Numbered from the stretch's first letter, positions 12,033-49,500 are shown. The stretch: 64,000 bases of DNA from an uncultured bacterium (GCA_903841185.1 CAIMIV010000042.1:11319-75318), one strand, 5' to 3'. Notes: a model not told the origin generated them from the sequence alone. Translations and numbers: made by a program.

Positions 12033-12033
12033 T

Positions 12034-29255: not shown

Positions 29256-29395
29256 GGAGTTTTGAATTTTAGGCATTCCCGCCAGAGGCGGACAGGCATC
29301 CCTGACCCCTCTGCCCAAAATCCAAAACAAAAAAACTTATTTAATCTATTTAGAATAAAAAGCGAATTTAAAAAAGAAAATAAATTTACATCGTC

Positions 29396-29615: not shown

Positions 29616-29652
29616 TTATTTAAAATCCCTTAAAAAATAAATTAAGAAAAAT

Positions 29653-29955: not shown

Positions 29956-29972
29956 TTTTAAATTACAATCCT

Positions 29973-31790: not shown

Positions 31791-33119
31791 AAAATATATA
31801 ATCTGCCCAAATGAAAGTCCAGCGTCGCCACGCGGAATTTGCACAACCGGTATCCTTGAGGAGGAGCCGGTTTTTTTATTTTCAAAATATTCAGAAATTA
31901 TTTTGTTGTTGGCGATTCCGCCGGCGATAAAGATTTGTGGTGAGCAACTTTTGGATTGCAGTTCAATAATCTCGCTCAAGCCTTCAGCGATGTAGCGCTG
32001 GGCAGTCGCAGCCAGCCTCCTTTTGTCTTTGTTTATATTTTTAATTAGATATTCAAACAAATAAGTTGTATTCAGTATGTAATGTTTTTTTGAAAATTTA
32101 GTCATTGAAAATTCATTGTAAATTGTAAATTGTAAATTGGAAATTGAAGGGCTTTCCATAACTTCAATCTTTGGTTTTATATCCATATAGGGCTTACCGG
32201 AGTTGCTTTCTAAGAGGTCTATCGCTTCGTGTTTGTAGGTTCTCTTATTGTCGCAAAAACCCAGTAGCAGCGAGACGGCATCTAGGATGCGACCCGTGCT
32301 GGAAGTTTCCAGACAATTAAAATTTTGTTGAAGTTGATTATACAGAACTTCAAATTCCTGCGCGGAATAATATTTTTTCGCGAAATTGTAGATAAAGTTT
32401 TTTTGAGATTTGAGATTTGAGATTTGAGATTTGTTTGTCCCTTGTTTTTTGTAGCTTGTGATTTTATCAAGTATCGCGATTAGCATTCTCGCCGGCTCCT
32501 GAATAGCCAACTCTCCTCCCAGCAATATTTGATTTTCCAAATGCCCAACGCGCTCATTGGAAATTTTAAATTTTAAATTTGTAATTTTAAATATCTCTCC
32601 TCCCCAAATTTTCTCATCTAATCCATACCCCGTTCCATCGAGAGCAATTCCGAAAAAGTTTTGAGTTTTGAGTTTTGAGTTTTGAGATTTGTTTGTATCT
32701 TGTGTCTTGTATCTTGTATCTTGCGTGAGCTCTCCCAATTGGGAGAAGATATGGGCCACGTGGTGTTGAACCTGGACATGCTCAGCTTTAAATTTTTTTG
32801 CTAATTCCTTTCCCCATAAAGTGGTGTTCATATCCGGGTGCAGGTCAGTGATGATGACATCCGGCGTAACGGATGTTTTTTTGAGAAACGCTAGGACAGT
32901 CTTTTGAAAGGCCTTGAAATTAGCGTCTTCTTGGAGATCGCCAAAATCAGGGGAGAAAAAAAGTTGACCATTTTTGAAAAAGGAAAAATTGCCAGCCGAT
33001 TCGGCTCCTAGAGAGAGGATTTGTTGAATGGTGGAATGAGGGTATTTAAAAATTTGCATGATTCGGGTAAAAAGATTATATATGTATGTAGTGTATAATA
33101 GAAATAATGAATTTGACAA
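31770..33119 (-). CDS. HypF-like carbamoyltransferase, Kae1/YgjD-like domain only
   Basis: TDLHPDMNTTLW and VQHHVAH match the HypF C-terminal domain. No acylphosphatase, Zn-finger or YrdC domain is present. Heptanucleotide tandem repeats encode low-complexity inserts. Confidence 0.55.
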   Translation of the reverse strand: MSNSLFLLYTTYIYNLFTRIMQIFKYPHSTIQQILSLGAESAGNFSFFKNGQLFFSPDFGDLQEDANFKAFQKTVLAFLKKTSVTPDVIITDLHPDMNTTLWGKELAKKFKAEHVQVQHHVAHIFSQLGELTQDTRYKTQDTNKSQNSKLKTQNFFGIALDGTGYGLDEKIWGGEIFKITNLKFKISNERVGHLENQILLGGELAIQEPARMLIAILDKITSYKKQGTNKSQISNLKSQKNFIYNFAKKYYSAQEFEVLYNQLQQNFNCLETSSTGRILDAVSLLLGFCDNKRTYKHEAIDLLESNSGKPYMDIKPKIEVMESPSISNLQFTIYNEFSMTKFSKKHYILNTTYLFEYLIKNINKDKRRLAATAQRYIAEGLSEIIELQSKSCSPQIFIAGGIANNKIISEYFENKKTGSSSRIPVVQIPRGDAGLSFGQIIYFLTNSRD

Positions 33120-33270
33120 ATCACGTCACTGTGTTATAAATAAGATTAAGAAGAAAAAAACTATGAATTATTCTTATACACAACAAAATAACTGGCGGCA
33201 TATTCAACTCTTGTAGGAAGAGCTTGGTTATGTTTTGTTATGTATAAAAACAATCACACATAAATATCCA

Positions 33271-33296
33271 ACCCCTTCCTGGAAGGGTTTTTTTGT
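33271..33296 (+). terminator. plus-strand intrinsic terminator-like hairpin
   Basis: cccttc ctg gaaggg followed by ttttttt. Confidence 0.4.
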
Positions 33297-33403
33297 ATGC
33301 AAAAAAGGTTTTTCTTGGAAGGCAGTTCTTTTAAAAGGTCTATTTCAATAGATAAATTGTTTGTCAAAAATTTAAGTGTGTCTGAGGCACAAGGAGGTGG
33401 AAA

Positions 33404-34195
33404 ATGGGTAAATATGGCGCATGGCAAGTGGGTGCAGGCATGGCGACATTGGGAGATTTGTCAATACCAATTACCCGGGACAAGCCGGGGGTATATGCTC
33501 GCGGAGAATATGGCGCGTTTTCTTCGGAAAGACGTGTAGCGATTTCAGGAGTGTGTTTGTTTGACGCTCGTTGGAGCGTGGAGTTCTCTACGGGCGGTGT
33601 GCGGTCAATCGCTTTGCCGTTGGATCGCTCGCGGGTACAAGATCGTATCCGGGAGCGGGGTTTTGAAGTCTCGCGGGTGATTTTTCCGTTGACGCTGACG
33701 GATTATCACACCAAGCTGTTGCATTTTGTTGCCAATACGGTGGAAAAATTGCAACCGGAAAAGTTGCTTTTCCATATTCCAATTGATGAATATTACGTGT
33801 ATATCCAGGAACTGGAAACGTTGATTGGGGGTGTGATTCCCGATGCCCAGGAGATTCTGGCGGGTTTTGCCGGGAAAGTGACGGACTGTTTTCGGGCAGA
33901 AATGCAGCGGGTCAAATTCGAGCGCTTTGAATTGATCCGGCCGATGCAGTGTGGCGCGGCGGATACGGAGCAATCCTATGCTATGCCCTACCAACAGCCA
34001 GAAGTTTTTGGCACAAACAAGGAGGCAATTTATGCTATTGAGGACCTGGTCGAAATGAAGATTGCTTTATTGACAGAGCAATGTCAGGGATACACCGTGC
34101 CAGTGAAATTCTGCGTGCTGGATATCCCGCATCCCTACGTAACTTTTTCAAAGAAGAATGTTATGCGGGGTGACATGGCAACGGTTTCTCTCTAG
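33404..34195 (+). CDS. hypothetical protein (higher GC than surroundings)
   Basis: 263 aa. A strong SD aggaggtg lies 7 nt upstream. No recognisable motif. Confidence 0.5.
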   Translation: MGKYGAWQVGAGMATLGDLSIPITRDKPGVYARGEYGAFSSERRVAISGVCLFDARWSVEFSTGGVRSIALPLDRSRVQDRIRERGFEVSRVIFPLTLTDYHTKLLHFVANTVEKLQPEKLLFHIPIDEYYVYIQELETLIGGVIPDAQEILAGFAGKVTDCFRAEMQRVKFERFELIRPMQCGAADTEQSYAMPYQQPEVFGTNKEAIYAIEDLVEMKIALLTEQCQGYTVPVKFCVLDIPHPYVTFSKKNVMRGDMATVSL

Positions 34196-34336
34196 GGAGT
34201 GGTCTTCATGGCGACATGTCTAACCATACCTCATCTGTTATTATTACAGATGAGGTATGGTATATTAAATGAATGCAGGAGTTTTAAAAATTAACAATAG
34301 GCCTATTGTGTAATGAGTTGCGTAACAGGTCTAATA

Positions 34337-35328
34337 TTTGTTTTATGAAAATTACAAAGTACAATGTGGATACATATATCCAGGGGAGTGTCTTTTTTGG
34401 CACCGGGGGTGGCTTGCCGGGTGATTTGCACCAAAAAATATTTCAAGATTTACTGGACAGTACGGATGAAATCAATGCGCATCCATTGGAAGCATTCCCG
34501 GATGAGGCGATATTGGTTTCGGCGTATGGCGTGGGCGACCCGTCAAAAATTCCGGAGAATTTCGTGGACAAGGTGCGAGAGGGATTTGCAAAATATAAAA
34601 AATTGACAGGCATAAAAATTGCCGGAATTGTTCCAGGGGAAATCGGTGCAGAGGGATTGGCTTTTCAAGTGGGGGCGTGTGTGGATCTGCCTATTGTGGA
34701 CGCCGATCTTGTAGGTGGGAGAGCTGCTCCGGAAATACAACTAGATGTTTTTAGTGTTTTCGGATTGCCAATAGTCCCAGTGGTTTTGTATGCCATGAAT
34801 GACAAGAGTATTTTTCTGGAAGGCAATTTTAGCGCGCAGGAAATAGAGCATATTTCACGTAATTTCTTCGCGCAAAATGGAGACAGCGGCTTCTTGATCG
34901 GTTATGGCATGTCAGCAGGAGAATATAAGAAATATGCGATGGCAGGCACTTTGTCGCAGACGATGCGAGCAGGGGAATTATTGCACGCTAAAAATAGCGC
35001 CGGCCTGGTAAGTTTGTTTGACGGGAAGATTATGAGCGAGGGGGTTATAGAGGCAGTAGAATTGAAGAGTCAGGATGGTTTTTTGGTAGGAAAAATTAAG
35101 CTCGCAGGAGGCGTGATGGAGGTCAAGAATGAGAACATTTCTTTTTTGCAAAAAAATGGTTCATTGGTGCAAGCACCGGACATCCTGATATTGCTTGCTG
35201 ATGATGGCACTCCTATACATAATACAAAAATAGCTGCCATGGTTGGACAGCACGTACGATTGATTTATCTGCCGGCGCAGGGATACTGGAATAGTGTCAT
35301 AGGGCGAGAACTATGGGAATTGCGGTAG
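34337..35328 (+). CDS. hypothetical protein, possibly DUF917-like
   Basis: A GTGGGLPGD glycine-rich N-terminus. The family assignment is tentative. Confidence 0.4.
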
Positions 35329-35428
35329 TGAATTATTACGCAGCAGGTCTGGCTTATAGATATTCAAAACATAAAAAATGTGGTAGAATATAAGTATTAA
35401 AAAGAGTGAAGAAAAAATAAAAAATATT

Positions 35429-36199
35429 ATGGAAGAAAATATTAAAAAACCCCGAGTAGCCATTGTCAGTCTGACGTCTTGTGAAGGTTGTCAATTTGCT
35501 CTCCTGGACTTGGGAGAGAAGTTTATCGAATTTGCCACGCAGGTGGAGTTGGTGGATTTTCGTTTGATCGAGGATGAGGAAGATGACGGCCGGGAATTGG
35601 ATTTGGTGTTGGTGGAAGGCAATCCGGTGACGGAAGCTAATTTGAAAACATTGCAGTCGCTGCGCAAAAGAAGCAAGCTTTTAGTGGCCTTAGGAAATTG
35701 TGCGGCCATGGGAGGAGTGCCCGAAATTAAAAATTATCACGAAGGAGTGAACACCATCAAGCACGTCTACAAATATATTCATGGCATTAACAACCCTGAA
35801 ATCAGAGAGATTGATAATTTTGTGAAAGTGGATTTCACTTTTCCGGGATGTCCGATTACGGGAGAAGAATTTTTGCAATATATCCCGTTTCTTTTACGCG
35901 GTGAGATTCCCACAATTCCCGATCAACCGGTGTGTGTGGAATGTCGCGCGGCTGGCAATCGCTGTTTGCTGCTCGATAAGAAGCCTTGTTTTGGTCCGAT
36001 GATCCAAGGAGGGTGTGGCGCGGTTTGTCCCACTTCACGTATGACCTGCCAAGGTTGTCGCGGTTTGCGCCCCACGGGAAATGTCAAGGCGATGCGAGCG
36101 GCGCTTAAGAATATGATTAGTGACCATGAGTTTGAAAATATCGCGGAGATTTTCGGTTTGCGCGATGATATTGAGGCTAGGGAAAAAGAAACGAAATAA
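35429..36199 (+). CDS. NiFe hydrogenase small subunit (group 3-like, delta-type)
   Basis: N-terminal SLTSCEGCQ and GNCAAMGG, plus C-terminal Fe-S cysteine clusters CVECRAAGNRC and CGAVCPTSRMTCQGC. Confidence 0.8.
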   Translation: MEENIKKPRVAIVSLTSCEGCQFALLDLGEKFIEFATQVELVDFRLIEDEEDDGRELDLVLVEGNPVTEANLKTLQSLRKRSKLLVALGNCAAMGGVPEIKNYHEGVNTIKHVYKYIHGINNPEIREIDNFVKVDFTFPGCPITGEEFLQYIPFLLRGEIPTIPDQPVCVECRAAGNRCLLLDKKPCFGPMIQGGCGAVCPTSRMTCQGCRGLRPTGNVKAMRAALKNMISDHEFENIAEIFGLRDDIEAREKETK

Positions 36200-36244
36200 A
36201 TTTAGTTAACTAATTAGGAGGAATAATCACTACTTATCAAAAAT

Positions 36245-37504
36245 ATGCAAATAAAAATCAATCATATTGCAAAGATGGAGGGACATACCGGCTTTATGGC
36301 CAGTGTCATTCATGGGGATGTGCGGAGTGCTAAATTGGAAGTGCAAGAAGGCATCCGCCTGATTGAAGGTGTGTTGATTGGCCGGCACTATGTGGACATG
36401 CCTATTATCGCTCAGCGCATCTGTGGCATCTGTCCGGTAGTGCACAATCTGACTTCCATCAAAGCCTTGGAGAATGCGATGGGGGTGACAGTGACGCCGG
36501 AAACAGAGAAGTTGCGTTCCGTCATGGAGTTGGGACAATTTATTCATTCTCATGCACTGCATCTTTTCTTTTTGTCGTTGGCCGATTTCTTGGATATGGA
36601 TAATGACATCCAGCTGATCAGCACTTATCCGGAAGAAACCAAAATTGCGGTGCGGTTGCGAGAGTTTGGTATGAGCATCGTCAAAGTGATTGGTGGGAGA
36701 GTGATTCATCCGATGAACAACGAGGTGGGCGGATTCAAAAAAGCGCCTGACGCAGAAGCTTTGCGCAAGATTGTGGAGAATAGTGAAGCTATTTTACAAG
36801 ACGCCTTGGCCTTGGGGGAATTTTTCAGAACCATAAAAATTCCGGATTTTCAAAGAAAAACCGAATATATCGCTTTGGGAAAGAAGGGAGAATATGCTAT
36901 TTATGCCGGGGATATTATTTCTTCGGAAGGGTTGCACATCGGTGTGGATAAGTTTGAAAATAATTTCCAGGAATTGCAAAAACAAAAAGAGGTGATTAAG
37001 CGCGTGGAGCATGAGGGCAAGAGTTATATGACCGGGGCCATCGCTCGCATCAATTTGAATCGCGATAAGCTCAATCCTCAAGCGAGTGCCTATTTGGACA
37101 GTTTGGGATTTGTTTTTCCGGATTACAATCCTTTTCATAATATCCTGGCGCAAATGGTGGAAGTGATTCATTGTGTGGAAGAAACCAGTCGCAAATTGAA
37201 AGAAATTTTGCAGAGTGATTTGGAAAAAGTGGTTACACAGCCTTATGAAGTGGCGGAAGGCGTGGGTGTCGCGGCCGTGGAAGCTCCGCGCGGAACACTC
37301 TATTATCACGTGGAAGTGGATGGTAATGGTTATATTAAAAATGCCAACATCATCACTCCCACCGCGCAGGTGCTGGCTAATCTGGAAGATGATATTGCGG
37401 ATTATATCAAGCAAATTATCGATTTGGAAGACGGGACGCGCCAAAAGAAATTACGGGCTTTCATTCGGGCGTATGATCCCTGTATTTCTTGCGCGGTACA
37501 CTAG
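36245..37504 (+). CDS. NiFe hydrogenase large subunit
   Basis: L1 motif RICGICPVVH and L2 motif DPCISCAVH at the extreme C-terminus, with no C-terminal extension. Confidence 0.9.
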   Translation: MQIKINHIAKMEGHTGFMASVIHGDVRSAKLEVQEGIRLIEGVLIGRHYVDMPIIAQRICGICPVVHNLTSIKALENAMGVTVTPETEKLRSVMELGQFIHSHALHLFFLSLADFLDMDNDIQLISTYPEETKIAVRLREFGMSIVKVIGGRVIHPMNNEVGGFKKAPDAEALRKIVENSEAILQDALALGEFFRTIKIPDFQRKTEYIALGKKGEYAIYAGDIISSEGLHIGVDKFENNFQELQKQKEVIKRVEHEGKSYMTGAIARINLNRDKLNPQASAYLDSLGFVFPDYNPFHNILAQMVEVIHCVEETSRKLKEILQSDLEKVVTQPYEVAEGVGVAAVEAPRGTLYYHVEVDGNGYIKNANIITPTAQVLANLEDDIADYIKQIIDLEDGTRQKKLRAFIRAYDPCISCAVH

Positions 37505-37632
37505 ATGCGAATGGGGTGCGAATGTTAAGAAAATAAATGCGAATAGTATATAATTTAATAATTTTTTTAATAAGTTGTTTGTGTTGAAATTAGAATAAAT
37601 TCGTTTTAGCATTAGCAATTATTTGCGAATAT

Positions 37633-38007
37633 ATGACAGAACTAAACCAGGTGTACAAATGTAATATCTGTGGCAATATGACCGAGGTCATCCATGTTGG
37701 CGGCGGGGAGTTGGTGTGTTGCGGAGCGGCGATGGAGCTGCAAGTGGAAAGAAATGATGAGGAGAGATATGAAAAACATAATCCAATAGTTGAGAGAGTG
37801 GAAGGTGGCATAATTGTGACTGTGGGAAGCATGCCTCATCCCATGGAAAGCGAGCATTATATCGAATGGATTGAAGTCATTACGGAACACCGCACTTACC
37901 GAAAAAATTTAGAGCCGGGTGGAGTGCCGGAAGCTGAATTCTTCTTTGAGGCGGAACATTTTGAAGTGCGAGCCTATTGTAATCTGCATGGAATGTGGGT
38001 GGCCTGA
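37633..38007 (+). CDS. dfx: desulfoferrodoxin (2Fe superoxide reductase)
   Basis: An N-terminal desulforedoxin-like domain KCNICGNMTEV...LVCCG is followed by a neelaredoxin domain with His/Cys ligands (HNP, HPMESEH, CNLHGMW). Confidence 0.8.
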   Translation: MTELNQVYKCNICGNMTEVIHVGGGELVCCGAAMELQVERNDEERYEKHNPIVERVEGGIIVTVGSMPHPMESEHYIEWIEVITEHRTYRKNLEPGGVPEAEFFFEAEHFEVRAYCNLHGMWVA

Positions 38008-38053
38008 AGATATTATCCCAGCACTAATTCCGATATAGTTTGTAGGTAATATG

Positions 38054-38173
38054 GGGATGCGTGTGCGAATTCGCCTCCGGCTAGGTTGAAATTTAATAAA
38101 TTAATTCAAGTGCGAATTAGTGCGGGATGCTTATTTTTATAGCTACTCGTTCCTCGCAGATAAAAATAGCATG
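38054..38173 (+). promoter_or_regulatory. partial copy of a structured leader element shared with nusG and rplK
   Basis: gtgcgaattcgcctccggcta ... tgcgaattagtgcgggatgc, then the stem tatttttat/ataaaaata enclosing the ATG at 38171. Confidence 0.4.
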
Positions 38174-38446
38174 CATGATTTTTTTCTGGCCAAACAAATA
38201 TTGGAAAAAATTAGAGAGATAGTCATGGAAAAGAAGTTGGAAAGAATTTCCAAGGTGTCGCTGGAAATTGGCAGTATTGTTTTGGCGCATGACAATCTGC
38301 CGGAACACCTGGAGGATATTAATATTGAAAATCTGGTATTCGGATTGAAAAGTTTTGCGAAAGACACCGCGCTGGCGCAAGTGGAATTTGATGTCCAAAA
38401 AGTGGCGGGAGAAAGTTGGAAAATAACCAGTATTGAGGTAGAATAA
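38171..38446 (+). CDS. HypA-like protein lacking the C-terminal zinc-finger
   Basis: The N-terminus MHDFFLAKQILEKI resembles the HypA MHE(L/M)S start. Length is 91 aa with no CxxC pairs. Confidence 0.35.
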   Translation: MHDFFLAKQILEKIREIVMEKKLERISKVSLEIGSIVLAHDNLPEHLEDINIENLVFGLKSFAKDTALAQVEFDVQKVAGESWKITSIEVE

Positions 38447-39702: not shown

Positions 39703-41274
39703 ATGTACGACATCATCATAAAAAACGGCACCCTAATTGATGGCAGTGGTGAGCCGATGTATCGAGCGGATATTGGTATTAAGGATGATCGGATAGTGAA
39801 AATCGGAAAATTGCAAAATGAAAAAGGCGAGATTGAAATCGACGCCTCAGATCGTTTGGTTTGTCCGGGATTTGTGGATGTGAATAATCATAGTGATGTG
39901 TATTGGCGAATTTTTTCTAATCCGGAATTGGAAAGTCTCGTTTATCAAGGAATAACCACTATTGTGGGCGGCAACTGCGGCACCTCCCTGGCTCCGCTTT
40001 TGGGCGCCAAAGCGATTGAATCTTTGCAAAAGTGGTCTAATATTGATACAACTAGCTTGAATTGGCTGACAATGGAAGAATTTTTGGATGAAGTGGAAAA
40101 AAGAAAGTTGGCAGTCAATTTTGCCACTTTAGTGGGTCATGCGACGGTGCGTCGAAGGCTGGTAGGGGATGATATGCGCAGCCTTCATTTGAATGAGATT
40201 GATTTTTTAGCCAAAAAAATAAAGGTGGCCATCAAGGATGGGGCGCTGGGCATGTCTTCCGGGCTGGTATATACGCATGCCAGGAGCACTACGGAAGAGG
40301 AATTGTTGGCTTTGGCGAAAGTAATCAAAAAATATGATGGCGTGTACGTGACGCATATGCGCAATGAGGGAGCGGGCCTGCTGGAGTCGGTGGAAGAATC
40401 ATTGGAGATTGCCAGGAAAACAAAAGTTAAATTGCATATTTCTCATCTCAAGGCGGTCGGTGAAGAGAATTGGGGATTAATGGACGCGGCCTTAAATATG
40501 ATTACCCAGGCCAGGGATAATGGTGTCGACGTCACTTTCGATGTCTACCCCTATACTAATATTGGATCAGTACTCTATACCTTGCTGCCTATTTGGGTAA
40601 CGGATGGCGGCAAGAAGATGATGCTTAATCGCTTGAAAGATCCTGCGTTGCGTGTTCGAATAATTGATGATATGAGGGCTTCCGGAGTGGATTATGCTAA
40701 GATTGAGATTGCCAGTTCTTCTTTGGACAAAACCTTGGCTCGCAGAAAAATCGCCGAAATTGCGGCGTCGCAAGAAAAGTCAGTGGAAGAGGCGGTGTTG
40801 GACACTTTGGTTGCTTCGGACGGCCGGATGATTATCTCCATGGATGTTTTAAGCGAAGAAAATATCCAAAAGGCTCTAGTGCATCCCGCTTCAATGATTT
40901 CTACTAATGGAGCAGGGTATCGTGATATCCACGGCCGAACAGGCGAAGTGGTGCATCCCAGAAGCTTTGGGTCTTTTCCTCGAATTTTCCCCGAATATGT
41001 TTTAGGGAAAAGAATTTTGCGCTGGGAAGAGGCTGTGGCTAAAATGACTTCCCTTCCGGCGGAGAAATTTGGCATTGAAAAAAGAGGTCGGTTGAAAGAA
41101 AAATATTATGCCGATATCGTTATTTTCAATCGGGATGAAATTAGAGATTTGGCCACGACAGAGAACCCCTATCAATATAGCCAAGGCATTGATTTCGTGC
41201 TGGTTAACGGACAGGTCCTTTTGCAAGAAGGCCGGTATAATGGGAACAAGGCGGGGGAGGTAATAAGAAGGTAA
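39703..41274 (+). CDS. D-aminoacylase / N-acyl-D-amino-acid deacylase (amidohydrolase family)
   Basis: N-terminal IIKNGTLIDGSG, PGFVDVNNHSD metal-binding motif, 523 aa. Confidence 0.7.
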   Translation: MYDIIIKNGTLIDGSGEPMYRADIGIKDDRIVKIGKLQNEKGEIEIDASDRLVCPGFVDVNNHSDVYWRIFSNPELESLVYQGITTIVGGNCGTSLAPLLGAKAIESLQKWSNIDTTSLNWLTMEEFLDEVEKRKLAVNFATLVGHATVRRRLVGDDMRSLHLNEIDFLAKKIKVAIKDGALGMSSGLVYTHARSTTEEELLALAKVIKKYDGVYVTHMRNEGAGLLESVEESLEIARKTKVKLHISHLKAVGEENWGLMDAALNMITQARDNGVDVTFDVYPYTNIGSVLYTLLPIWVTDGGKKMMLNRLKDPALRVRIIDDMRASGVDYAKIEIASSSLDKTLARRKIAEIAASQEKSVEEAVLDTLVASDGRMIISMDVLSEENIQKALVHPASMISTNGAGYRDIHGRTGEVVHPRSFGSFPRIFPEYVLGKRILRWEEAVAKMTSLPAEKFGIEKRGRLKEKYYADIVIFNRDEIRDLATTENPYQYSQGIDFVLVNGQVLLQEGRYNGNKAGEVIRR

Positions 41275-41277
41275 TGT

Positions 41278-43812
41278 TTGAATAGTATGAATCCTAATCC
41301 GAAAAGTTTTGAATTTACTTCGTACAAAATAAATAAAGAAAAGTCAGCAATAATTTTTTCTTATGAGATGGCTTTTTTTAATGCTGCTCCAATTCAATTC
41401 TCTGAAACAATTTCTTTTAGAGAATCTTTTTCGCTTGAAAATATTCCGGCAGAACTTTTAGAAAATTTATTGCAAAGTGTGCACATTGCACTCGGCGTAA
41501 GTTATTATAAATTATATTGTCCTAAGGAAATAAAAATTAATTCTATTCTCTCCCAAAAACAAGCTGAATTTTGGAATACGGTATATCGCAAGGGTTTGGG
41601 GGAGTTTTTTTATCGCAATCAAATTGATTCTGCGGGGCTGATAAATTTTCCTTTTGAAAAAGAAAAAAATGAAAAAGTATATCGACTAAAAAGAAAGACT
41701 AGATCTCTAGTGGGTATTGGTGGCGGAAAAGATTCTATTGTGGCAGTCGAGTTGCTACGAGAGCAGGGAGATGATGTGACAGCTTTTTTGGTGGAGACGC
41801 AACGGGAGGATAGCATTTCGCAGAATGTTGTATCCAAACTAGAAATTGGCTCAATTAAAATTGAGCGAAAATTGGACGAAAAACTTTTTGGAACATTTGA
41901 GGGAGCGTATAATGGTCATGTGCCCATTTCTTCTATCTTTGCTTTTCTAGGCTATTTAACGGCGATCTTGTACGATTATTCGCAAGTAGTGGTAGCTAAT
42001 GAATATAGTAGTAATTTTGGAAATATTATTTATGAAGGTCAGGAAATAAATCACCAATGGAGCAAATCTATGGAATTTGAAAAACTCTTTCAAGACTATA
42101 CTCGAGAAAATATTTGTCCAGACGTGCTTTATTTTTCTCTGTTGCGACAATTTTACGAAATTCGCATTATGGAGATGTTTGTTAAATATAAAAAATATTT
42201 CCCTATTTTTACCAGTTGCAACCGTAATTTCAGGGTGCATAAGGATAGGCCACAATCTTTGTGGTGCGGGGAATGTCCTAAATGTGTCTTTGCTTGGATT
42301 CTTTCGTCAGCTTTTTTAGAAAAAGAAGAATTGATTTCTATTTTCCATAAAAATCTCTACGATGACAAAAATCTTCTTCCACTATTCAAAGATATTTTAG
42401 GTTATGGCGAGATGAAACCTTTTGATTGCGTGGGAACTTTTGAGGAGTCTCGAGTGGCCTTGCACATGGCCAAGGAAAAATTTCCAGACAGTTTTATTGT
42501 GCAAAATTTGGAAGAAAAATTAGGTAACCAAGACGAGCATAAGCGCATTGTCTTCGGGACAAACGTTGCTCCAACGCTGCCAGACAAGTATAAATTATAT
42601 GGCGTAAAAAACGTGCTTATTGTTGGCTATGGAAAAGAAGGCCAGACGACTGAAAAATATTTGAAAAAATATTTCCCCCAAATAGCGATAGCGGTTGCGG
42701 ATGAAAAAGACGGCGAAAATTATTTAGATAATCAAAATGGTTATGATTTGGCAATAAAAACTCCAGGTTTACAAAAAGAAAAAATAACCATCCCATATAC
42801 CACCGCCACGAACCTGTTTTTTTCTCAGACAAAAAATAATTTGAAAATCGGAGTGACGGGTAGCAAAGGGAAAAGCACTACGGCATCGCTTATCTTTGTT
42901 ATCCTGAAGGAAGCTGGAAAAAAAGTGCGCTTAGTAGGAAACATTGGTGAGCCGATGTTGGAAACTCTACTAGAATCTCTGGATGAAGAAGAAATTTTTG
43001 TGATTGAACTTTCTAGCTATCAATTGGATGATCTGCACTATTCTCCAGAAATAGCTGTGGTGACCAATCTTTTTTCCGAGCATATGAATTATCATGGCAG
43101 TGTAGAAAATTATTATTTAGCTAAACAGAATATTATTAAATATCAGAATGTGGATAACCATTTTATTTTTAATGCTGCTAACGCTGATTTACAATCATGG
43201 ATTTCTCTGGCAAAAGCCAAAAAAGTAGCTTTTAATGAAATTGAAATTGCGCAGATAAAAAGTTCCCTCCTGGGTGATCATAACGCGGACAATATTAAAG
43301 CTGCTATGGCGGTGGCTGATGTTTTGGATATTCCTGATGATATCGTTGTAAGCGCGATAGAAAAATTTCAGCCACTTTTGCACCGTATGGAATTTGTGGG
43401 GGAATTCCGGCAGATAAAATTTTATAATGATGCCAATGCCACAATTCCGGAGGCCACCATAGGAGCCATAGGAGCTCTCCCTGAGGTGGAAACAATCTTT
43501 TTGGGAGGATTGGATAGGGGTTATGATTTTTCTAGCTTGGCGCAAATTATTGACGCGTCAGGAATAAAGAATATAGTATTTTTCCCTGATAGTGGCAGAA
43601 AAATAGAAGAGACATTGCAGATGATTAATCCTACAAAAAAATATAATGTTTTACATACGAAAGATATGGAGGAAGCGGTGCGGTTTGCCTATGCTAATAC
43701 AGGAAATGGAAAAGTTTGCTTGCTTTCAACAGCTTCTCCAAGCTATAGCATTTGGAAAAATTTTGTAGAAAAAGGAGAAAAATTCAAAGAGGCAATTGCA
43801 TGCCTAAAATAG
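41278..43812 (+). CDS. murD: fusion protein: N-terminal PP-loop ATP-pyrophosphatase-like domain plus C-terminal UDP-N-acetylmuramoylalanine-glutamate ligase (MurD)
   Basis: N-domain GIGGGKDS (SGGxDS PP-loop) and CGECPKC. C-domain VLIVGYGKEGQ, Mur ligase P-loop IGVTGSKGKSTT and a Mur C-terminal domain. Confidence 0.7.
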   Translation: MNSMNPNPKSFEFTSYKINKEKSAIIFSYEMAFFNAAPIQFSETISFRESFSLENIPAELLENLLQSVHIALGVSYYKLYCPKEIKINSILSQKQAEFWNTVYRKGLGEFFYRNQIDSAGLINFPFEKEKNEKVYRLKRKTRSLVGIGGGKDSIVAVELLREQGDDVTAFLVETQREDSISQNVVSKLEIGSIKIERKLDEKLFGTFEGAYNGHVPISSIFAFLGYLTAILYDYSQVVVANEYSSNFGNIIYEGQEINHQWSKSMEFEKLFQDYTRENICPDVLYFSLLRQFYEIRIMEMFVKYKKYFPIFTSCNRNFRVHKDRPQSLWCGECPKCVFAWILSSAFLEKEELISIFHKNLYDDKNLLPLFKDILGYGEMKPFDCVGTFEESRVALHMAKEKFPDSFIVQNLEEKLGNQDEHKRIVFGTNVAPTLPDKYKLYGVKNVLIVGYGKEGQTTEKYLKKYFPQIAIAVADEKDGENYLDNQNGYDLAIKTPGLQKEKITIPYTTATNLFFSQTKNNLKIGVTGSKGKSTTASLIFVILKEAGKKVRLVGNIGEPMLETLLESLDEEEIFVIELSSYQLDDLHYSPEIAVVTNLFSEHMNYHGSVENYYLAKQNIIKYQNVDNHFIFNAANADLQSWISLAKAKKVAFNEIEIAQIKSSLLGDHNADNIKAAMAVADVLDIPDDIVVSAIEKFQPLLHRMEFVGEFRQIKFYNDANATIPEATIGAIGALPEVETIFLGGLDRGYDFSSLAQIIDASGIKNIVFFPDSGRKIEETLQMINPTKKYNVLHTKDMEEAVRFAYANTGNGKVCLLSTASPSYSIWKNFVEKGEKFKEAIACLK

Positions 43813-44018: not shown

Positions 44019-46496
44019 ATGGAAAATTATCCGCCACACGTAAACTCCAGTTTTAAAGTTGAATCTGTAGTAGAAAAAGATGCCAGCTCTAAATTTACAG
44101 TGAAAATGATGGATGCTGTCAGTATAGTCAGCATTTTTATGCTTTTTTTCGGCTTGCCAATCTTTTTCACCGGGCTATCGCTGCAAGGTATCGTTTTTGA
44201 AAAACAAATGTATTTCTATTTCTGGACACTCCTGGCTTTGATTTGTTGGGCAGGCAAGGGAGTGCTTTTGGGCGAGATGAAAATTCGGCGAACCCCGTTG
44301 GATATTCCAATTTTGTTGTTTTGGGTGGTGTACTTATTGGCAACCGTAATCTCTGTTGACCGCTGGCACAGCTTTGTAGGCCTATCAGTTGATCCATCAC
44401 GAGGTTTCATGAATGTAACAGCTTTGGTGTTGGTATATTATGTCATTATGAGCAATTTCAGTGAAAAAATGTTTCGCTGGATTGTGGGAGCGATTACTTC
44501 TTCCAGTCTGATTGTGTTTGTTTGGTCAACTCTGGGTATTTTGGGCGTTAATTTTTTACCGGCAAAGATAGCCGCATACGCGCCGCTGAGCCTGTTGGGA
44601 ACAGTTTCCAGTTTGGGAATATTTCTGGGCATCATGTTGCCAATTGTTATTACGATCTTGTTTAAGGTACGGGGCAATGATGCAATGCGCAAATGGCTTA
44701 AGAATAGCCTAACAGTGGTGCTTTTGCTTGACTTAGCGCTGAATGTTTTTTTGCTGTTAGCCTTGTATGGATTTGTATCTTGGGTTGTCTTTATGATAGG
44801 TATTGGTTTCTTTTTGATATTTATCTTAGCTAGGATTGTGCGTCCGATCGAGAGTTGGTCATGGGTGCTGATTACAACTTTTATCCTGCTGATGGTTATT
44901 TGGATGTCGGGGGACAGTTTCAAAATAGTGCAGATTAATTTACCGACAGAGGTTAGTCCGGCATATAATCTTTCTTGGCAAGTAGCGAAAGATTCTGTGA
45001 GAAATAATTTTTTCCTGGGAACAGGCGCGGCTTCGTATGGCTATGATTTTTCTTTGTACAAACCGCAAGATTTCAATTTGAATCAGTTGTACAATCTGCG
45101 CTTCTATCAAGGCACGGGAATTGTTTTTGAAGCGCTTTCGACAATCGGTGTAATAGGAATATTGGCATTGGCTTTGATATTGCTATCTTTCATTAGTCTC
45201 AGTGTATTTTATTTGATTGTGCGGAAAGAAAAAGACAAGGTCTATTCTTTGGGATTTGTAACAGCAGCCTTGATTTTCCTTATGTCCGCTGTTTTGAACC
45301 GTGTGGAAGGATCATTGCTGATAGTCGGCAGCCTATTGGCTGTCGTGTCCTTGGCGGTTTTGATTCGGGAGAGTGACTCGGAGGAGAGATTTTTAAAATT
45401 ATCGCTTAAGGCCTCACCTAAATATGCTTTGACGCTAGCGTTTATTTTTATAGTGGTTAGTGCCGGCGTGGCCTACTCATTCGTTTTTGTGGGAAAAATG
45501 TATATCGCAGATTTGTATGCCGGAGCAGCCATGCGTCAAGCGCAAGTCACTGAAGACGGTTCTATTGCGAAAATATTGCGGGCGGCCAATCTGAATAGCA
45601 AAGAGGATAAATATTATACAAACATCGGACAACAGTATATGGTTTTGGCTAATAGTGAAATGCTTAAGCCGAGTGAACAGCGAGACGTGACGGCGGTGCA
45701 GAATTATTTAAATAATTCTATTATGGCTGTGACTCATGCTCGCGATTTGGTGCCTAATGACGTGGCTACTGTGGAAGCTTTGGCGCAAGTGTATGAAAAT
45801 GCCGGTATGTATGTGGCCGATCCTGGGTATGTGGCTGATTCGTTGAAATGGGCAGAAGATACGTATAATCAAGCGTTGAAATTAGAGCCGAACAATCCGA
45901 ATTTTAACTTGGAACTGGGGAAAATCAAGCTTAGCCAAACGGCAATTGCAAAGACTGATGATGAAAAGAAACAACTAGTGGGTCAGGCTAAGGACTTATT
46001 CCAAAAATCAATTGATGAAAAAAATAATTTCGCTCCGGGATATTATCAATTGGCCCTTGCTCAATCAGCGCTGAATGACCTTGATGCGGCCATTGAAACG
46101 ATGGGTAAAGCCAAATATTTTGATAGTGCTAATATTAACTATTTCTTTAGCCAGGCTAGATTGTATCAGCAAAGAGGCAAAGGTGATGACAATAAAACTG
46201 CTGAAGCTATTTTCAAGCAAATTCTGGGCGTGAATGACAAGGAGATCAATACACATTTCAGTTTGGCGATGTTATATGAGAAAATGAATGAAAGAGATCA
46301 GGCGATTACTGAGTACAATCGCGTGATTGAATTGTTGCCAGCGGATAACAAGGACGTGACAGACAAGGTCAAGGCAATGATTGAAAATGTGAAGAACGGA
46401 GTTTCTAATTTGCAAACCAAGGCGGCGGATGTCGCGACTGAATCAGTGCAGTCCGCTGCTCCAGCTCAACCAGCTGCGTCAAAGGTGAATCCATAG
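44019..46496 (+). CDS. O-antigen ligase/oligosaccharyltransferase-like polytopic membrane protein with C-terminal TPR repeats
   Basis: About 12 TM helices with a Wzy_C-like large loop, and a C-terminal ~350 aa with TPR-like repeats. Confidence 0.55.
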   Translation: MENYPPHVNSSFKVESVVEKDASSKFTVKMMDAVSIVSIFMLFFGLPIFFTGLSLQGIVFEKQMYFYFWTLLALICWAGKGVLLGEMKIRRTPLDIPILLFWVVYLLATVISVDRWHSFVGLSVDPSRGFMNVTALVLVYYVIMSNFSEKMFRWIVGAITSSSLIVFVWSTLGILGVNFLPAKIAAYAPLSLLGTVSSLGIFLGIMLPIVITILFKVRGNDAMRKWLKNSLTVVLLLDLALNVFLLLALYGFVSWVVFMIGIGFFLIFILARIVRPIESWSWVLITTFILLMVIWMSGDSFKIVQINLPTEVSPAYNLSWQVAKDSVRNNFFLGTGAASYGYDFSLYKPQDFNLNQLYNLRFYQGTGIVFEALSTIGVIGILALALILLSFISLSVFYLIVRKEKDKVYSLGFVTAALIFLMSAVLNRVEGSLLIVGSLLAVVSLAVLIRESDSEERFLKLSLKASPKYALTLAFIFIVVSAGVAYSFVFVGKMYIADLYAGAAMRQAQVTEDGSIAKILRAANLNSKEDKYYTNIGQQYMVLANSEMLKPSEQRDVTAVQNYLNNSIMAVTHARDLVPNDVATVEALAQVYENAGMYVADPGYVADSLKWAEDTYNQALKLEPNNPNFNLELGKIKLSQTAIAKTDDEKKQLVGQAKDLFQKSIDEKNNFAPGYYQLALAQSALNDLDAAIETMGKAKYFDSANINYFFSQARLYQQRGKGDDNKTAEAIFKQILGVNDKEINTHFSLAMLYEKMNERDQAITEYNRVIELLPADNKDVTDKVKAMIENVKNGVSNLQTKAADVATESVQSAAPAQPAASKVNP

Positions 46497-46583: not shown

Positions 46584-49500
46584 ATGTCGCAAGCTGAGGA
46601 ATCATGCTCGATTTTTGAAAAATATAAACTGCACAAAAATTACTTCTTGTTGTTTGTAGTTTTTTGTGTCTTTGCCTTACTCAAATATCTTTCTCGATAC
46701 GAATCTTTGAGCAATTTTGTCATGGGGGCAATAGCCGTTTCCCCCTTCATCCTAACCACTGCTTTTCTCACTTGGGTCTATCTGAAGGATCGCAAGAACC
46801 ATGTCTTGTATAAGCTGATGATGAAGCAGGATGTTTTTCTCAAACTGGCTTTCAAATTGACTCTATCAGTTCTGGTGATATTGGTGGTTTTGTTTCCGGG
46901 CGATTGGAAACCGCTGTTGAATTTTTTTGATGTCGTCCGCCGGTCATTTTCCCTGGAGATGTATTTTCTTATTGCCTCATATCTCGCCGCCTTCATTCTC
47001 GCCGGCGAACTGATTTCTTTTTTTGTACGCTTGTATCAAATCAGTGTAGGCACCTATCATCACAAGATTTATCATGTTTTTAAAAAAACCCTCTACTCGA
47101 CTTTTTTTGTTTTTTTCCTGTTATTGCTTTTTTCCGTCCTGACTTATCCGCAAGCTTTCTATCCGATTACCGACGCTGTGTCCGATGTCATGTTCACCGT
47201 TAGTCAAGGTACCGTGGCTTTGTCTAAGTTATCCGGCGGGGAATTGCAAAGCAATACTTCGCTACTTAATCTGGCTAAGAATGCTTTTTCCAAAACTTCC
47301 TCCAATCTAGTCCGCAAGATGGATACAACTCAGTCGGATCTGGCCAAGTCTGTAGCACTCAGCCGGGATGCCCTTGTGCAATCGGTAGCGGACACTTCCA
47401 AAAATCTGACCGAATCGACTAATGGCAAAGTATCTTCCGATGGCGGCAAGATCAGTGGGGCGGTGGTTCTGTCCGGCAAAGGTTCTGACTTGACAGTGGA
47501 GGGCACCACTATCACTAAAGACATTCTACCGGATGCATCGTTGTCATATAATTTGGGCAGCGCAGGCAAGACTTGGAACACGGTGTATGCTCATCGCCTC
47601 ATCGGAGCGTCCCCGGTTTTCATCGGCACCGGTTCTTCCGCTCAAGGTTTGACTAATGATGGCGACCTAGTCGTGTCAAGCGATTTGGAAGTGCGAGGGA
47701 AAATTTATGCCACGCAAATTATCGGACCGGTTTCGAACACAAATAAATTTGAAGGCGGAATAATAACCAGTAGCATCGTTCCGGATGGATCAAATATCAA
47801 CCTCGGCAGCGCCAGCAATCATTTTTCCACGGTCTATGCCAACAGTCTCGTGGGTGTGCCTTTGAATTTTCTGCCGCTGATCGGTGGCACGCTTTCCGGT
47901 AATTTGAATTTAGGCAATCATAGTTTTACCACTTTCAATTCAGTCCTAGTGGACAATCTCAATGCGGATTTGTTGGATGGCAGTCAGGCCAGTGCTTTTG
48001 CCATGCTCAACGGCAGAAGTGGCGGACAAACAATCACTGGCGACACAGCGGCCGGCGGTAATCTGACCTTGTCTTCTACGAACAATGCTGCCAAAGGCAA
48101 AATAGTTTTTGGCAATTCTGCCTATGATGAAAAATCTAATCGATTGGGAATTGGCACAAACACTCCGGGCGCTCTGCTGCACCTGAACAATGCCACTGCC
48201 GGCCAAAAATCTTTGATCATCCAAGGTGCGCAAAACCAATCCGCTAATTTGGTGGAAATCTATGGCTATGATTCCGGTGGCATTCCGAATGGCCAGACTT
48301 TTGACAACGCGCCGGTTTTTGATGACGCGCATACCTTTGACAACGCACCGTCTTTGATCAATCTAACTTTTGATAATAATCCTTCTAGTCTATCTGCCAT
48401 CGCCAATTACAACAGCAGTTCAGCCTACAGCGCTTACAACAATTCGCATTCGTTGAAAATATATGCCTACAAAATAATCAACGGAATTAAAATTTTTAAT
48501 CCGACGCCGATTGTAACTGCATTGAATGACGACAACAGCGGTCGTACCTACACTATCAGCTGGTCTTGGTCGCCAGCCACGGATGCGGATGGTTATCGCA
48601 TCTTCAAATCCATTAGTGACGGCTCAGCTAATTTTGATAAATTCACGGATGTAGTCGGCACGAGTTTCTACGACACTGGCGCCACTGATTTTTCTCAAGA
48701 CGGAACCTTTGACGGACGCACGAGCTTGGCCTATGCGGTCAATTACAATACCGGTTCAAGCTACGCGGCTAACGGCAGTCAGCATCAATTAGTAGTGTAT
48801 GCCTATGAATTGCATAATGGCGTCAAAATTTTCAATAACGCGCCGTTGCACATCATCCCACAGATTGATTCCAGTGGTCGAAATTTTTCTCTGGATTATT
48901 CGTGGACAGCGGCCAGTGGCGCCGACGGTTATCGGGTGTTTGACTATGACAGCTCCGCCGGAATCTATGTCAGTCGCTATGCAGACATCACGACTACGAA
49001 CTTCCATGATGCCGGTCAAAATGATTTCACGAGCAGCGGAACATTCAATGGATCTACGAGCTATACCGACGGCCATGTAGTCAATTATGGCTCCGGTTCG
49101 AGCTACGTTGCCAATGGCCAAGAACACGGCGTACGCGTCTATGCATATAAAGAATATGCCGGCACCAAGATTTTCAATCCGGATTATGCGCAAGCCCAGT
49201 TTACTGACAATAACAGCGGTCAGCACTATACCATCGATTGGTCATGGACGGCGGCCGCGGGTGCCACCGGTTATCGCGTGTTTGATTTCGACAGTGGCAA
49301 CAGCATCAATTTTGATAAATATAGCGATGTCACTAATTCCAATTTCCAAGACGCCAGTCCCGGCAGCTTCACTCACACTGGTACTTTTGACGGCATGACG
49401 GAATATACCGGTTCGATGATGGCTTCTATTTCCAAAGACGGCATTATCGACGCCGCTGGTTTTTCCATCAATGGCGTGGCGCTTAGCGTTTCCGGCTGGG

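What the first reader, a model, noticed from the sequence alone, without database searches (positions are those of the whole stretch)
39703..43812. MurD fused to an N-terminal PP-loop ATP-pyrophosphatase-like domain, next to a D-aminoacylase
The 844-aa protein has a ~420-aa N-domain with an SGGxDS-type PP-loop (GIGGGKDS) and a CGECPKC motif, ahead of a complete MurD ligase. A PP-loop domain adenylates carboxylates. One hypothesis is a MurL-like, ATP-dependent epimerase coupled to an L-Glu-adding MurD2. The adjacent N-acyl-D-amino-acid deacylase could instead be a D-Glu source. Both ideas are speculative.
Basis: inference. Interest (0 to 1): 0.6.

Follow-up and report, generated by a model that had tools for sequence, protein, structure and literature searches.

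The report
Fused MurL epimerase–MurD2 ligase (Patescibacteria)
This gene fuses the two enzymes of the known "alternative" cell-wall route, one that adds L-glutamate to the peptidoglycan precursor and one that then flips it to D-glutamate using ATP, and the same pair, fused or as adjacent genes, occurs in hundreds of ultra-small Patescibacteria, a group not named in the two held reviews of the pathway.

Summary
ORF 41278-43812 (844 aa; the real start is probably ATG 41287, giving 841 aa) has two halves. Residues 9-414 match NCBIfam MurL end to end (E 6.5e-104) and carry Pfam MurL_N plus MurL_epimerase_C. Residues 445-840 are a complete MurD-type ligase, above the TIGR01087 cut-off.

- The ligase half carries the published MurD2 specificity residues: E601, R747, P821 and Y823, where E. 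coli MurD has D182, K348, A414 and L416.
- More than 120 full-length fusions exist in Patescibacteria.
- Of 80 related genome loci, 35 are fused, 42 have murL directly upstream of murD, and 26 sit in the mraY-[..]-ftsW-murG slot where murD normally lies.
- A reverse-order fusion also exists.

The alternative idea, that the neighbouring D-aminoacylase supplies D-Glu, is not supported. That gene is adjacent in only 5 of 66 testable loci, and it has lost the catalytic Asp (N402) and one metal-binding His (N61).

This is a known pathway in a new architecture and a new, large lineage. Enzyme activity and absence of murI remain untested.

The parts
41278..43812 (+). Whole MurL-MurD2 fusion ORF (844 aa from TTG 41278; probable true start ATG 41287, 841 aa; stop TAG 43810-43812)
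41302..42519 (+). [quoted passage not shown]
   Evidence: NF041275 E 6.5e-104, 347.9 bits, model positions 8-411 of 447. Pfam MurL_N and MurL_epimerase_C are precomputed for the identical protein. AF2 pLDDT 93.3.
41713..41736 (+). PP-loop motif GIGGGKDS (aa 146-153), the ATP pyrophosphatase signature
   Evidence: G150, K151 and S153 are identical in 81 of 81 fused and split MurL sequences, D152 in 80 of 81. The fold matches QueC, TtuA and NAD synthetase.
42217..42285 (+). Invariant tetracysteine set C314 ... C330-x2-C333-x2-C336 (CGECPKC), probably a metal site as in QueC
   Evidence: All four Cys are present in 81 of 81 sequences. The metal-site role is inferred from the QueC-like fold.
42415..42438 (+). 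Conserved KPFDCVGT motif with invariant C384, a candidate catalytic residue of the epimerase
   Evidence: C384 is present in 81 of 81 sequences. Its role is inference only.
42610..43797 (+). MurD2-type Mur ligase domain, aa 445-840 (P-loop GSKGKSTT at 42859-42882)
   Evidence: TIGR01087 256.5 bits, above the cut-off of 211.95. PDB MurD 3lk7 E 1.4e-44. Catalytic K532, N555, E577, H602, K616, R703 and D718 are conserved.
43078..43080 (+). E601, aligned with E. coli MurD D182 and X. oryzae MurD2 E197 (L-Glu specificity determinant)
   Evidence: E in 111 of 120 fusions; PMC8788868
43516..43518 (+). R747, aligned with E. coli MurD K348 and X. oryzae MurD2 R358 (L-Glu specificity determinant)
   Evidence: R in 120 of 120; PMC8788868
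43738..43746 (+). P821-S822-Y823, aligned with E. coli A414-S415-L416 and with MurD2 P433 and F435
   Evidence: P in 120 of 120; Y in 118 and F in 2
39703..41274 (+). Upstream neighbour: D-aminoacylase-family amidohydrolase with a degenerate active site (N61 for His67, N402 for Asp366). It lies 3 nt before TTG 41278 and 12 nt before ATG 41287. It is probably co-transcribed, but it is not a conserved partner.

Best explanation
The ORF encodes a bifunctional enzyme of the MurD2/MurL branch of peptidoglycan precursor synthesis.

Step 1: the C-terminal Mur ligase domain (MurD2 type) uses ATP, via an acyl-phosphate, to add L-glutamate to UDP-MurNAc-L-Ala.

Step 2: the N-terminal MurL domain has a QueC-like PP-loop ATP pyrophosphatase core. 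It adenylates the alpha-carboxylate of that terminal L-Glu (ATP to AMP plus PPi). This acidifies the C-alpha proton and allows one-way inversion. [quoted passage not shown]

The organism, a Moranbacteria/Parcubacteria-type member of the Patescibacteria, could thus put D-Glu into its wall without a free D-Glu pool.

Shown here: the domain identities, the specificity-residue signature, the fold, the fusion/adjacency pattern and the dcw-cluster context.

Taken from the characterised Xanthomonas enzymes: the reaction itself.

Inference only: a metal site at C314/C330/C333/C336, a catalytic role for C384, and substrate hand-over between the two domains.
For: 1. MurL homology. NF041275 scores E 6.5e-104 over aa 9-414, covering model positions 8-411 of 447. 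Pfam MurL_N and MurL_epimerase_C match the identical protein.

2. MurD2 signature. All four positions that PMC8788868 reports as differing between E. coli MurD and X. oryzae MurD2 are in the MurD2 state. D182 is E601, K348 is R747, A414 is P821 and L416 is Y823 (MurD2 has Phe there). K319 is N720; a K319T change lets E. coli MurD accept L-Glu. Across 120 fusions: E in 111, R in 120, P in 120, Y or F in 120, and never Lys at the K319 position. The same holds in 35 fused and 42 split loci. In X. oryzae MurD2 the E197D/R358K double mutation switched the enzyme to D-Glu.

4. Linkage. More than 120 full-length fusions exist. Of 80 GTDB species loci, 35 are fused, and 42 have murL followed by murD on the same strand, usually after a gap of about 10-50 nt. 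A reverse-order MurD-MurL fusion, P0226, also exists.

5. Housekeeping context. In 26 of 80 loci the pair lies mraY-[murL-murD]-ftsW-murG, which is the canonical murD slot (also L007). No second strong MurD hit appeared in any flank.

6. The full-length model has pTM 0.85 with a well-ordered junction (aa 421-450, pLDDT 94-96).

7. No glutamate racemase or D-amino-acid aminotransferase was found in the window. No MurI homologue was found in 1.45 Mb of the window plus related flanks.
Against: - No enzyme of this Patescibacteria clade has been assayed.
- The NF041275 score (348 bits) is far below that model's equivalog cut-off (700). The cut-off is tuned to Xanthomonadales, so orthology in the strict sense is inferred.
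- I could not obtain the X. oryzae MurD2 or MurL sequences. The signature comparison therefore relies on the residue identities printed in PMC8788868, mapped through E. coli MurD.
- The E197-equivalent is Asp in 9 of 120 fusions and 12 of 77 loci. Arg at the K348 position also occurs in a canonical D-Glu MurD (S. agalactiae 3lk7). The signature is therefore suggestive rather than diagnostic for any single residue.
- Genome-wide absence of murI was not testable.
- The Glu-binding loop 820-831 is the one low-confidence stretch of the full-length model.
Confidence: 0.82

Rival explanations
1. The ligase half is an ordinary D-Glu-adding MurD, as public annotation says. On this reading the MurL-like PP-loop domain does something else to the stem peptide after adenylating a carboxylate. 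One example would be amidation of the Glu alpha-carboxylate to iso-glutamine, the chemistry typical of PP-loop amidotransferases such as NAD synthetase, asparagine synthetase and QueC.
For: [quoted passage not shown] The closest solved folds (QueC, NAD synthetase) use the adenylate for N-transfer, not epimerisation. The MurL model score is below its equivalog cut-off.
Against: Homology to MurL runs over the full length at E 1e-104 and includes the MurL_epimerase_C domain. The ligase carries E/R/P/Y at the sites shown by mutagenesis to set L-Glu specificity, and these co-vary with MurL linkage in 77 loci. TIGR01087 predates the discovery of MurD2 and cannot tell the two apart. No glutaminase or ammonia-channel domain is present.
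Confidence: 0.1
2. The adjacent N-acyl-D-amino-acid deacylase releases D-Glu from acylated D-Glu or scavenged muropeptides, and a D-Glu-using MurD consumes it.
For: The two genes are 3-12 nt apart on the same strand. The neighbour is homologous to D-aminoacylase and N-acyl-D-glutamate deacylase. Adjacency recurs in L003, L009, L011, L015, L019 and L060 at 48-58% identity for the five GTDB loci.
Against: An upstream copy is present in only 5 of 66 loci with enough upstream DNA. It is absent from P0024, P0039, P0060 and P0117. The residue aligned with the catalytic Asp366 of A. faecalis D-aminoacylase is Asn402, and metal ligand His67 is Asn61. This holds in 6 of 7 fusion-adjacent copies, and two of those have also lost Cys96 and His220. 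The ligase has the L-Glu signature.
Confidence: 0.03
3. The fusion is an artefact: two adjacent genes (murL, murD) merged by a sequencing or assembly error.
For: Split murL-murD pairs with short gaps are common in other Patescibacteria (42 of 80 loci).
Against: The identical 841-aa protein occurs on 7 contigs. More than 120 homologues down to 53% identity keep one ORF. The junction residues are conserved and modelled at pLDDT 94-96.
Confidence: 0.01

Closest known systems
MurL (XOO_1319) of Xanthomonas oryzae, UDP-N-acetyl-alpha-D-muramoyl-L-alanyl-L-glutamate epimerase (Feng et al. 2017, as reviewed in PMC8788868 and PMC5808125)
   Same: Full-length homology to the NCBIfam model built on it (E 6.5e-104). 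Both Pfam MurL domains are present. It is genetically coupled to a MurD2-type ligase. The PP-loop fold explains the reported ATP-to-AMP requirement.
   Different: Here it is the N-terminal half of a single 844-aa polypeptide rather than a free protein of about 450 aa. It scores 348 bits against a 700-bit equivalog cut-off. The host is a Patescibacteria (CPR) bacterium, a group not named in the published distribution (some Gamma- and Alphaproteobacteria and rare actinobacteria, with low-similarity orthologues in cyanobacteria, a fungus and an amoeba).
[quoted passage not shown]
   Same: MurD-type Mur ligase with Glu, Arg, Pro and an aromatic residue at the four positions that distinguish MurD2 (E197, R358, P433, F435) from E. 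coli MurD (D182, K348, A414, L416). It is linked to murL.
   Different: It is fused C-terminally to MurL. It has Tyr instead of Phe at the fourth position. L-Glu specificity has not been measured.
Canonical MurD (E. coli b0088; PDB 1e0d, 3lk7 and others)
   Same: Same fold and same catalytic residues: K115, N138, E157, H183, carbamylated K198, R302 and D317 are all conserved. In many relatives it occupies the same dcw-cluster slot between mraY and ftsW.
   Different: The Glu-site residues are in the MurD2 state. The K319 equivalent is Asn or Ile, never Lys. It carries a 440-aa N-terminal extension.
QueC (7-cyano-7-deazaguanine synthase, PDB 3bl5) and the QueC-like Cap9 (9nto)
   Different: Only 14-16% identity, and only about 176 of 436 residues superpose. 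MurL has extra N-terminal (aa 1-135) and C-terminal helical (aa 340-430) modules. Its adenylate is used for epimerisation, not for amide or nitrile formation.
D-aminoacylase of Alcaligenes faecalis (1m7j) and N-acyl-D-glutamate deacylase (3gip), for the upstream neighbour
   Same: Same family over the full length (E 1e-72 and 1e-68). The beta-site metal ligands Cys, His and His are retained (C92, H218, H248).
   Different: The catalytic Asp366 is Asn402 and the alpha-site His67 is Asn61. The same changes are conserved in the clade that sits next to the fusion.

Membership tests
[quoted passage not shown] | Full-length sequence homology to characterised MurL (NCBIfam NF041275; Pfam MurL_N PF26299 plus MurL_epimerase_C PF26298) | tested here: met
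   E 6.5e-104, 347.9 bits, aa 9-414 against model positions 8-411 of 447. Both Pfam domains are on the identical protein. The local Pfam copy lacks these two models.
[quoted passage not shown] | Score above NCBIfam's equivalog cut-off (700 bits), meaning same function by NCBI's own rule | tested here: not met
   347.9 bits against a 700-bit cut-off. The model is named for Xanthomonadales. Other Patescibacteria MurL proteins score 237-385 bits.
[quoted passage not shown] | Genetic coupling to a MurD2-type ligase | tested here: met
   Fused here. In 80 loci, 35 are fused and 42 adjacent. A reverse-order fusion, P0226, exists.
[quoted passage not shown] | ATP- and Mg-dependent, AMP-forming, one-way L-to-D epimerisation of the terminal Glu | not testable with these tools
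   Only indirect support: conserved PP-loop GGGKDS and a QueC-like adenylating fold.
MurL/MurD2 pathway | Genome lacks glutamate racemase (MurI) and D-amino-acid aminotransferase | tested here: inconclusive
   None among the ORFs of 150 aa or more in the 64-kb window. No tblastn hit with E. coli MurI in the window plus 87 loci, 1.45 Mb in all. Whole genomes could not be read.
MurD2 (L-Glu-adding MurD) | MurD-type Mur ligase with intact catalytic residues | tested here: met
   TIGR01087 256.5 bits, above 211.95. K532, N555, E577, H602, K616, R703 and D718 align with E. coli K115, N138, E157, H183, K198, R302 and D317.
MurD2 (L-Glu-adding MurD) | Glu at the D182 position and Arg at the K348 position (E197/R358 of X. 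oryzae MurD2, shown by mutagenesis to set L-Glu specificity) | tested here: met
   E601 and R747. E in 111 of 120 and R in 120 of 120 fusions. The residue definitions come from PMC8788868.
MurD2 (L-Glu-adding MurD) | Pro and an aromatic residue at the A414 and L416 positions (P433, F435) | tested here: met
   P821 (120 of 120) and Y823 (Y in 118, F in 2). The paper reports that these two positions do not by themselves change specificity.
MurD2 (L-Glu-adding MurD) | Preference for L-Glu over D-Glu in vitro | not testable with these tools
   Needs an enzyme assay.
PP-loop ATP pyrophosphatase superfamily | SGGxDS-type motif at the first strand-helix turn, and the adenine-nucleotide alpha-hydrolase fold | tested here: met
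N-acyl-D-amino-acid deacylase (the neighbour gene) | Complete metal-binding and catalytic set of A. faecalis D-aminoacylase (His67, His69, Cys96, His220, His250, Asp366) | tested here: not met
   The window protein has N61, H63, C92, H218, H248 and N402 (alignment, coordinates). The same Asn/Asn pair is in 6 of 7 fusion-adjacent copies. The residue roles are from my own knowledge of the 1m7j literature.

The most novel reading that the evidence does not exclude
The MurD2/MurL route may not be a curiosity of a few proteobacterial and actinobacterial genera. It may instead be the standard, possibly the only, way that a large part of the Patescibacteria/CPR radiation makes the D-Glu of its peptidoglycan. 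On this reading murL was inserted into the conserved dcw cluster just upstream of murD. It was then fused to it repeatedly, in both orders, giving a rigid two-active-site enzyme that passes on the L-Glu intermediate without releasing it. If so, most database 'MurD (D-glutamate ligase)' labels in this radiation are wrong, and the idea that MurD2/MurL inhibitors would be narrow-spectrum needs revising.
Probability: 0.4. Interest if true: 0.55.

Novelty: new variant of a known kind. Interest (0 to 1): 0.42.

Why it matters
1. Distribution. The two held reviews describe the pathway as limited to relatively few genera and promote it as a narrow-spectrum antibiotic target (PMC8788868). They also appear in 2,565 protein clusters at 50% identity. 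The best 80 loci carry mostly Patescibacteria names.

2. Annotation. Most of these fusions are labelled as ordinary D-glutamate-adding MurD in NCBI and JGI records. Metabolic reconstructions of these ultra-small bacteria would therefore wrongly infer a need for free D-Glu or MurI.

3. Mechanism. The held reviews (2018 and 2021) say MurL lacks known conserved domains. The confident QueC-like PP-loop model, the invariant tetracysteine set and the invariant C384 give concrete residues for mutagenesis. The natural fusion is a convenient single-polypeptide system for structural work on this unusual ATP-consuming, one-way epimerase.

4. Evolution. Fusions in both orders are textbook Rosetta-stone evidence that these two activities work on one substrate stream.

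Tried and rejected
- The local Pfam copy gave only Mur_ligase_M, Mur_ligase_C and sub-threshold PP-loop hits for the N half. The MurL Pfam families became visible only through precomputed annotations.
- A sequence search of the PDB found no MurL structure. Fold searches found none either.
- The afdb50 fold library was not available, so I could not compare the model with an AlphaFold model of a characterised MurL.
- I could not obtain the X. oryzae MurL or MurD2 sequences. The one genome-contig scan returned only the 80 best loci, which carry mostly Patescibacteria names. Residue comparison therefore went through E. coli MurD numbering.
- Six literature searches combined MurL or MurD2 with Patescibacteria/CPR, glutamate racemase or related terms. 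They found only the two Dairi-group reviews and nothing on a fusion or on CPR. The 2024 paper on Saccharimonas glutamate racemase is not held.
- The D-aminoacylase-as-partner idea was rejected for poor conservation and a degenerate active site.
- Model coordinates are not exposed to scripts. I could not measure the distance between active sites or the Cys geometry.
- The promoter and terminator scan around the genes gave nothing decisive.
Full report
**What is there.** The window encodes two closely spaced same-strand ORFs. One is a 523-aa amidohydrolase (39703-41274). The other is an 844-aa protein (41278-43812). The amidohydrolase ends at TAA 41272-41274. The long ORF can start at TTG 41278 or at ATG 41287. 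Public gene calls use the ATG (P0001, 841 aa, 100% identical), and homologues begin at the equivalent Met.

**Identity of the two halves.** Against NCBIfam, aa 9-414 match NF041275 (MurL, UDP-N-acetyl-alpha-D-muramoyl-L-alanyl-L-glutamate epimerase) at E 6.5e-104 and 347.9 bits, covering model positions 8-411 of 447. Residues 445-840 match TIGR01087 (murD) at 256.5 bits, above its cut-off of 211.95. The local Pfam copy sees only Mur_ligase_M and Mur_ligase_C plus sub-threshold PP-loop hits. The precomputed annotation of the identical protein lists PF26299 MurL_N and PF26298 MurL_epimerase_C ahead of the Mur ligase domains. The MurL score is below that model's equivalog cut-off of 700 bits. The model is named for Xanthomonadales, and other Patescibacteria MurL proteins score 237-385 bits.

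[quoted passage not shown] MurL (XOO_1319) then converts the terminal L-Glu to D-Glu in one direction only, using one ATP and forming AMP. At the time of the reviews, MurL "lacks known conserved domains". The pathway was reported in some Gamma- and Alphaproteobacteria and rare actinobacteria that lack D-Glu-forming genes (PMC8788868). An earlier review adds low-similarity orthologues in cyanobacteria, a fungus and an amoeba (PMC5808125). Four Glu-site residues differ between E. coli MurD and MurD2:
- D182 versus E197
- K348 versus R358
- A414 versus P433
- L416 versus F435

The MurD2 double mutant E197D/R358K switches completely to D-Glu. A K319T change lets E. coli MurD accept L-Glu.

**Test of the ligase half.** I took E. 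coli MurD from NC_000913 and confirmed that the literature numbering omits Met1. I then aligned it with the ligase halves of the window protein and 119 homologues. The catalytic residues K115, N138, E157, H183, K198, R302 and D317 are all conserved. The four discriminating positions are in the MurD2 state:

| E. coli MurD | Window protein | Across 120 fusions |
|---|---|---|
| D182 | E601 | E in 111, D in 9 |
| K348 | R747 | R in 120 |
| A414 | P821 | P in 120 |
| L416 | Y823 | Y in 118, F in 2 |
| K319 | N720 | never Lys |

The same pattern holds in 35 fused and 42 unfused relatives from reference genomes. There is a caveat. Arg at the K348 position also occurs in the canonical S. agalactiae MurD, which has Thr at the D182 position. 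The Glu plus Arg combination is therefore the informative feature.

Across 81 fused and split MurL sequences, these features are invariant or nearly so:
- the PP-loop G148-G149-G150-K151-D152-S153
- C314
- C330-x2-C333-x2-C336
- C384, within KPFDCVGT
- NHQWSKS at aa 258-264

The PP-loop fold explains the published ATP-to-AMP stoichiometry. The enzyme adenylates the Glu alpha-carboxylate, as the discoverers proposed. From memory, QueC binds Zn through a C...CxxCxxC set, so I infer a metal site at the tetracysteine motif. C384 is a candidate acid/base or thioester-forming residue. Both points are inference.

**Distribution and linkage.** The protein search returned 1,465 proteins with E of 1e-5 or below. 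The best 120 are all proteins of 781-883 aa (most 811-883) at 52-65% identity that cover at least 93% of the query and carry the MurL and Mur ligase domains. Where a source names the organism, it is Moranbacteria, Parcubacteria, Buchananbacteria or Patescibacteria. [quoted passage not shown]

Of those hits, 576 were confirmed as relatives. Among the best 80 loci, 35 have a single MurL-MurD ORF. Another 42 have murL (about 400-535 aa) followed by murD on the same strand, usually after a gap of about 10-50 nt; these include Roizman-, Woese-, Levyi- and Peribacteria, Microgenomates and some Uhrbacteria. Three have no MurD within reach.

An exhaustive HMMER search of cluster representatives at 50% identity found 2,565 MurL-like clusters (1,176 at E of 1e-30 or below). 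Among the best 150, 21 are fusion-length. One of them, P0226, is the reverse order: MurD at aa 25-445 and MurL at aa 454-845.

In 26 of the 80 loci the pair lies mraY-[murL-murD]-ftsW-murG. This is the slot that murD occupies in the conserved division/cell-wall cluster. Examples are L028 (fused) and L036 (split, on a complete Roizmanbacteria chromosome). P0117 shows the same context. No flank contained a second strong MurD. In the window genome the cluster is dispersed: MraY is at 11962-13134 and a D-Ala-D-Ala carboxypeptidase is at 10992-12032.

**The fused architecture.** The full-length model has pLDDT 89.4 and pTM 0.85. The junction (aa 421-450) is modelled at pLDDT 94-96, so it is not a floppy linker. 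Only the loop 820-831, which contains P821 and Y823, is uncertain. This loop corresponds to the Glu-binding loop of MurD. The model is compatible with a fixed two-site enzyme and possible hand-over of the L-Glu intermediate. I could not measure distances because model coordinates are not exposed.

**The neighbour.** The upstream gene belongs to the D-aminoacylase family (1m7j E 7.8e-72; N-acyl-D-glutamate deacylase 3gip E 6.5e-68). Adjacency holds in the 65%-identical relative P0002, where the whole run from hydrogenase through desulfoferrodoxin, HypA, GAPDH and amidohydrolase to the fusion is syntenic. It also holds in 5 of 66 reference loci with enough upstream DNA: L009, L011, L015, L019 and L060. 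It does not hold in P0024, P0039, P0060 or P0117.

In the HMMER alignment to 1m7j, the catalytic Asp366 aligns with Asn402 and the metal ligand His67 aligns with Asn61. His69, Cys96, His220 and His250 are kept. Six of the seven fusion-adjacent copies share the Asn/Asn pair, and two of those have also lost the Cys and one His. Only L019 keeps the full set. The D-Glu-source idea is therefore weak. The gene looks like a lineage-specific neighbour that may be catalytically impaired.

**murI.** Pfam scans of the non-overlapping ORFs of 150 aa or more in the window found no Asp/Glu racemase and no class-IV aminotransferase. A tblastn search with E. coli MurI found nothing in the window or in 87 related loci, 1.45 Mb in all. 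This is consistent with the model but not decisive. The window is a small part of the genome, and whole genomes could not be read.

**Novelty.** The pathway, both enzyme families and the models that detect them are known, so the identification itself is ordinary. Three things are not in the searchable literature:
- the single-polypeptide MurL-MurD2 architecture
- its abundance, together with that of the adjacent-gene form, across Patescibacteria
- the QueC-like PP-loop description of MurL

The original JACS 2017 paper and the 2019 MurD2 paper are not held, so I cannot exclude that fusions were mentioned there. I rate this a new variant of a known kind, of moderate interest.

Noticed in passing
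window 39703-41274 (N61 at 39883-39885, N402 at 40906-40908): The D-aminoacylase-family neighbour has Asn where A. faecalis D-aminoacylase has the catalytic Asp366 and the metal ligand His67. The same substitutions recur in 6 of 7 copies that sit next to MurL-MurD2 fusions, and two of those copies also lose Cys96 and His220. It may be a pseudoenzyme or have a changed function.
   Followed up: partly
P0226 (878 aa; no locus fetched): A reverse-order fusion: MurD at aa 25-445 followed by MurL at aa 454-845. By eye, its ligase has Asp, Arg, Pro and Phe at the four discriminating sites. The two activities have therefore been fused independently in both orders.
   Followed up: partly
window 44019-46496 and 46584-55682: An 825-aa protein with a C-terminal TPR region and a 3,032-aa protein with a C-terminal Peptidase_S74 domain lie between the fusion and the tRNA/NusG/L11/L1 genes. 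The multi-pass membrane and tail-spike-chaperone readings of these proteins are my own, not a tool result. In the 65%-identical relative (L003/L004) this space holds only two or three small ORFs, one of them a DUF7670 protein, so the pair looks like an insertion. GC content rises to 0.47-0.49 here.
   Followed up: no
window about 20000-30000: A low-GC stretch (0.33-0.35, against about 0.42 elsewhere). It contains a tyrosine recombinase (22955-23815, minus strand), a RhuM-family protein (28233-29255), an ABC exporter (26436-28172) and several ORFs with no family match. It may be an integrated element.
   Followed up: no
window 30657-38446: A compact hydrogenase cluster: an AIRS-domain protein I read as HypE (30657-31790), a 449-aa HypF-like protein with only the C-terminal Kae1-like domains (31770-33119, minus strand), NiFe hydrogenase small and large subunits (35429-37504), desulfoferrodoxin (37633-38007) and HypA (38120-38446). 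Family names for the last two come from the syntenic relative L003. A DUF917/S-Me-THD-like protein (34306-35328) and a 263-aa ORF with no family match (33404-34195) sit just upstream of the subunits.
   Followed up: no
L035, L038, L044, L045, L047 and others: Many MAG records with Patescibacteria-like murL-murD loci are titled 'uncultured Gammaproteobacteria bacterium', and one is titled 'Weeksellaceae bacterium'. These labels look unreliable, or the contigs are mis-binned. I did not verify their taxonomy.
   Followed up: no
L007 8510-8962: In the relative carrying P0117, a separate 150-aa ORF with only a Mur_ligase_C domain overlaps the end of the fusion gene, just before ftsW. It could be a frameshifted duplicate or a fragment.
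   Followed up: no
window 10992-13134: The ORFs for the S11 D-Ala-D-Ala carboxypeptidase (10992-12032) and MraY (11962-13134) overlap by 71 nt as listed. The MraY start is probably further downstream. Peptidoglycan genes in this genome are scattered rather than in one dcw cluster.
   Followed up: no
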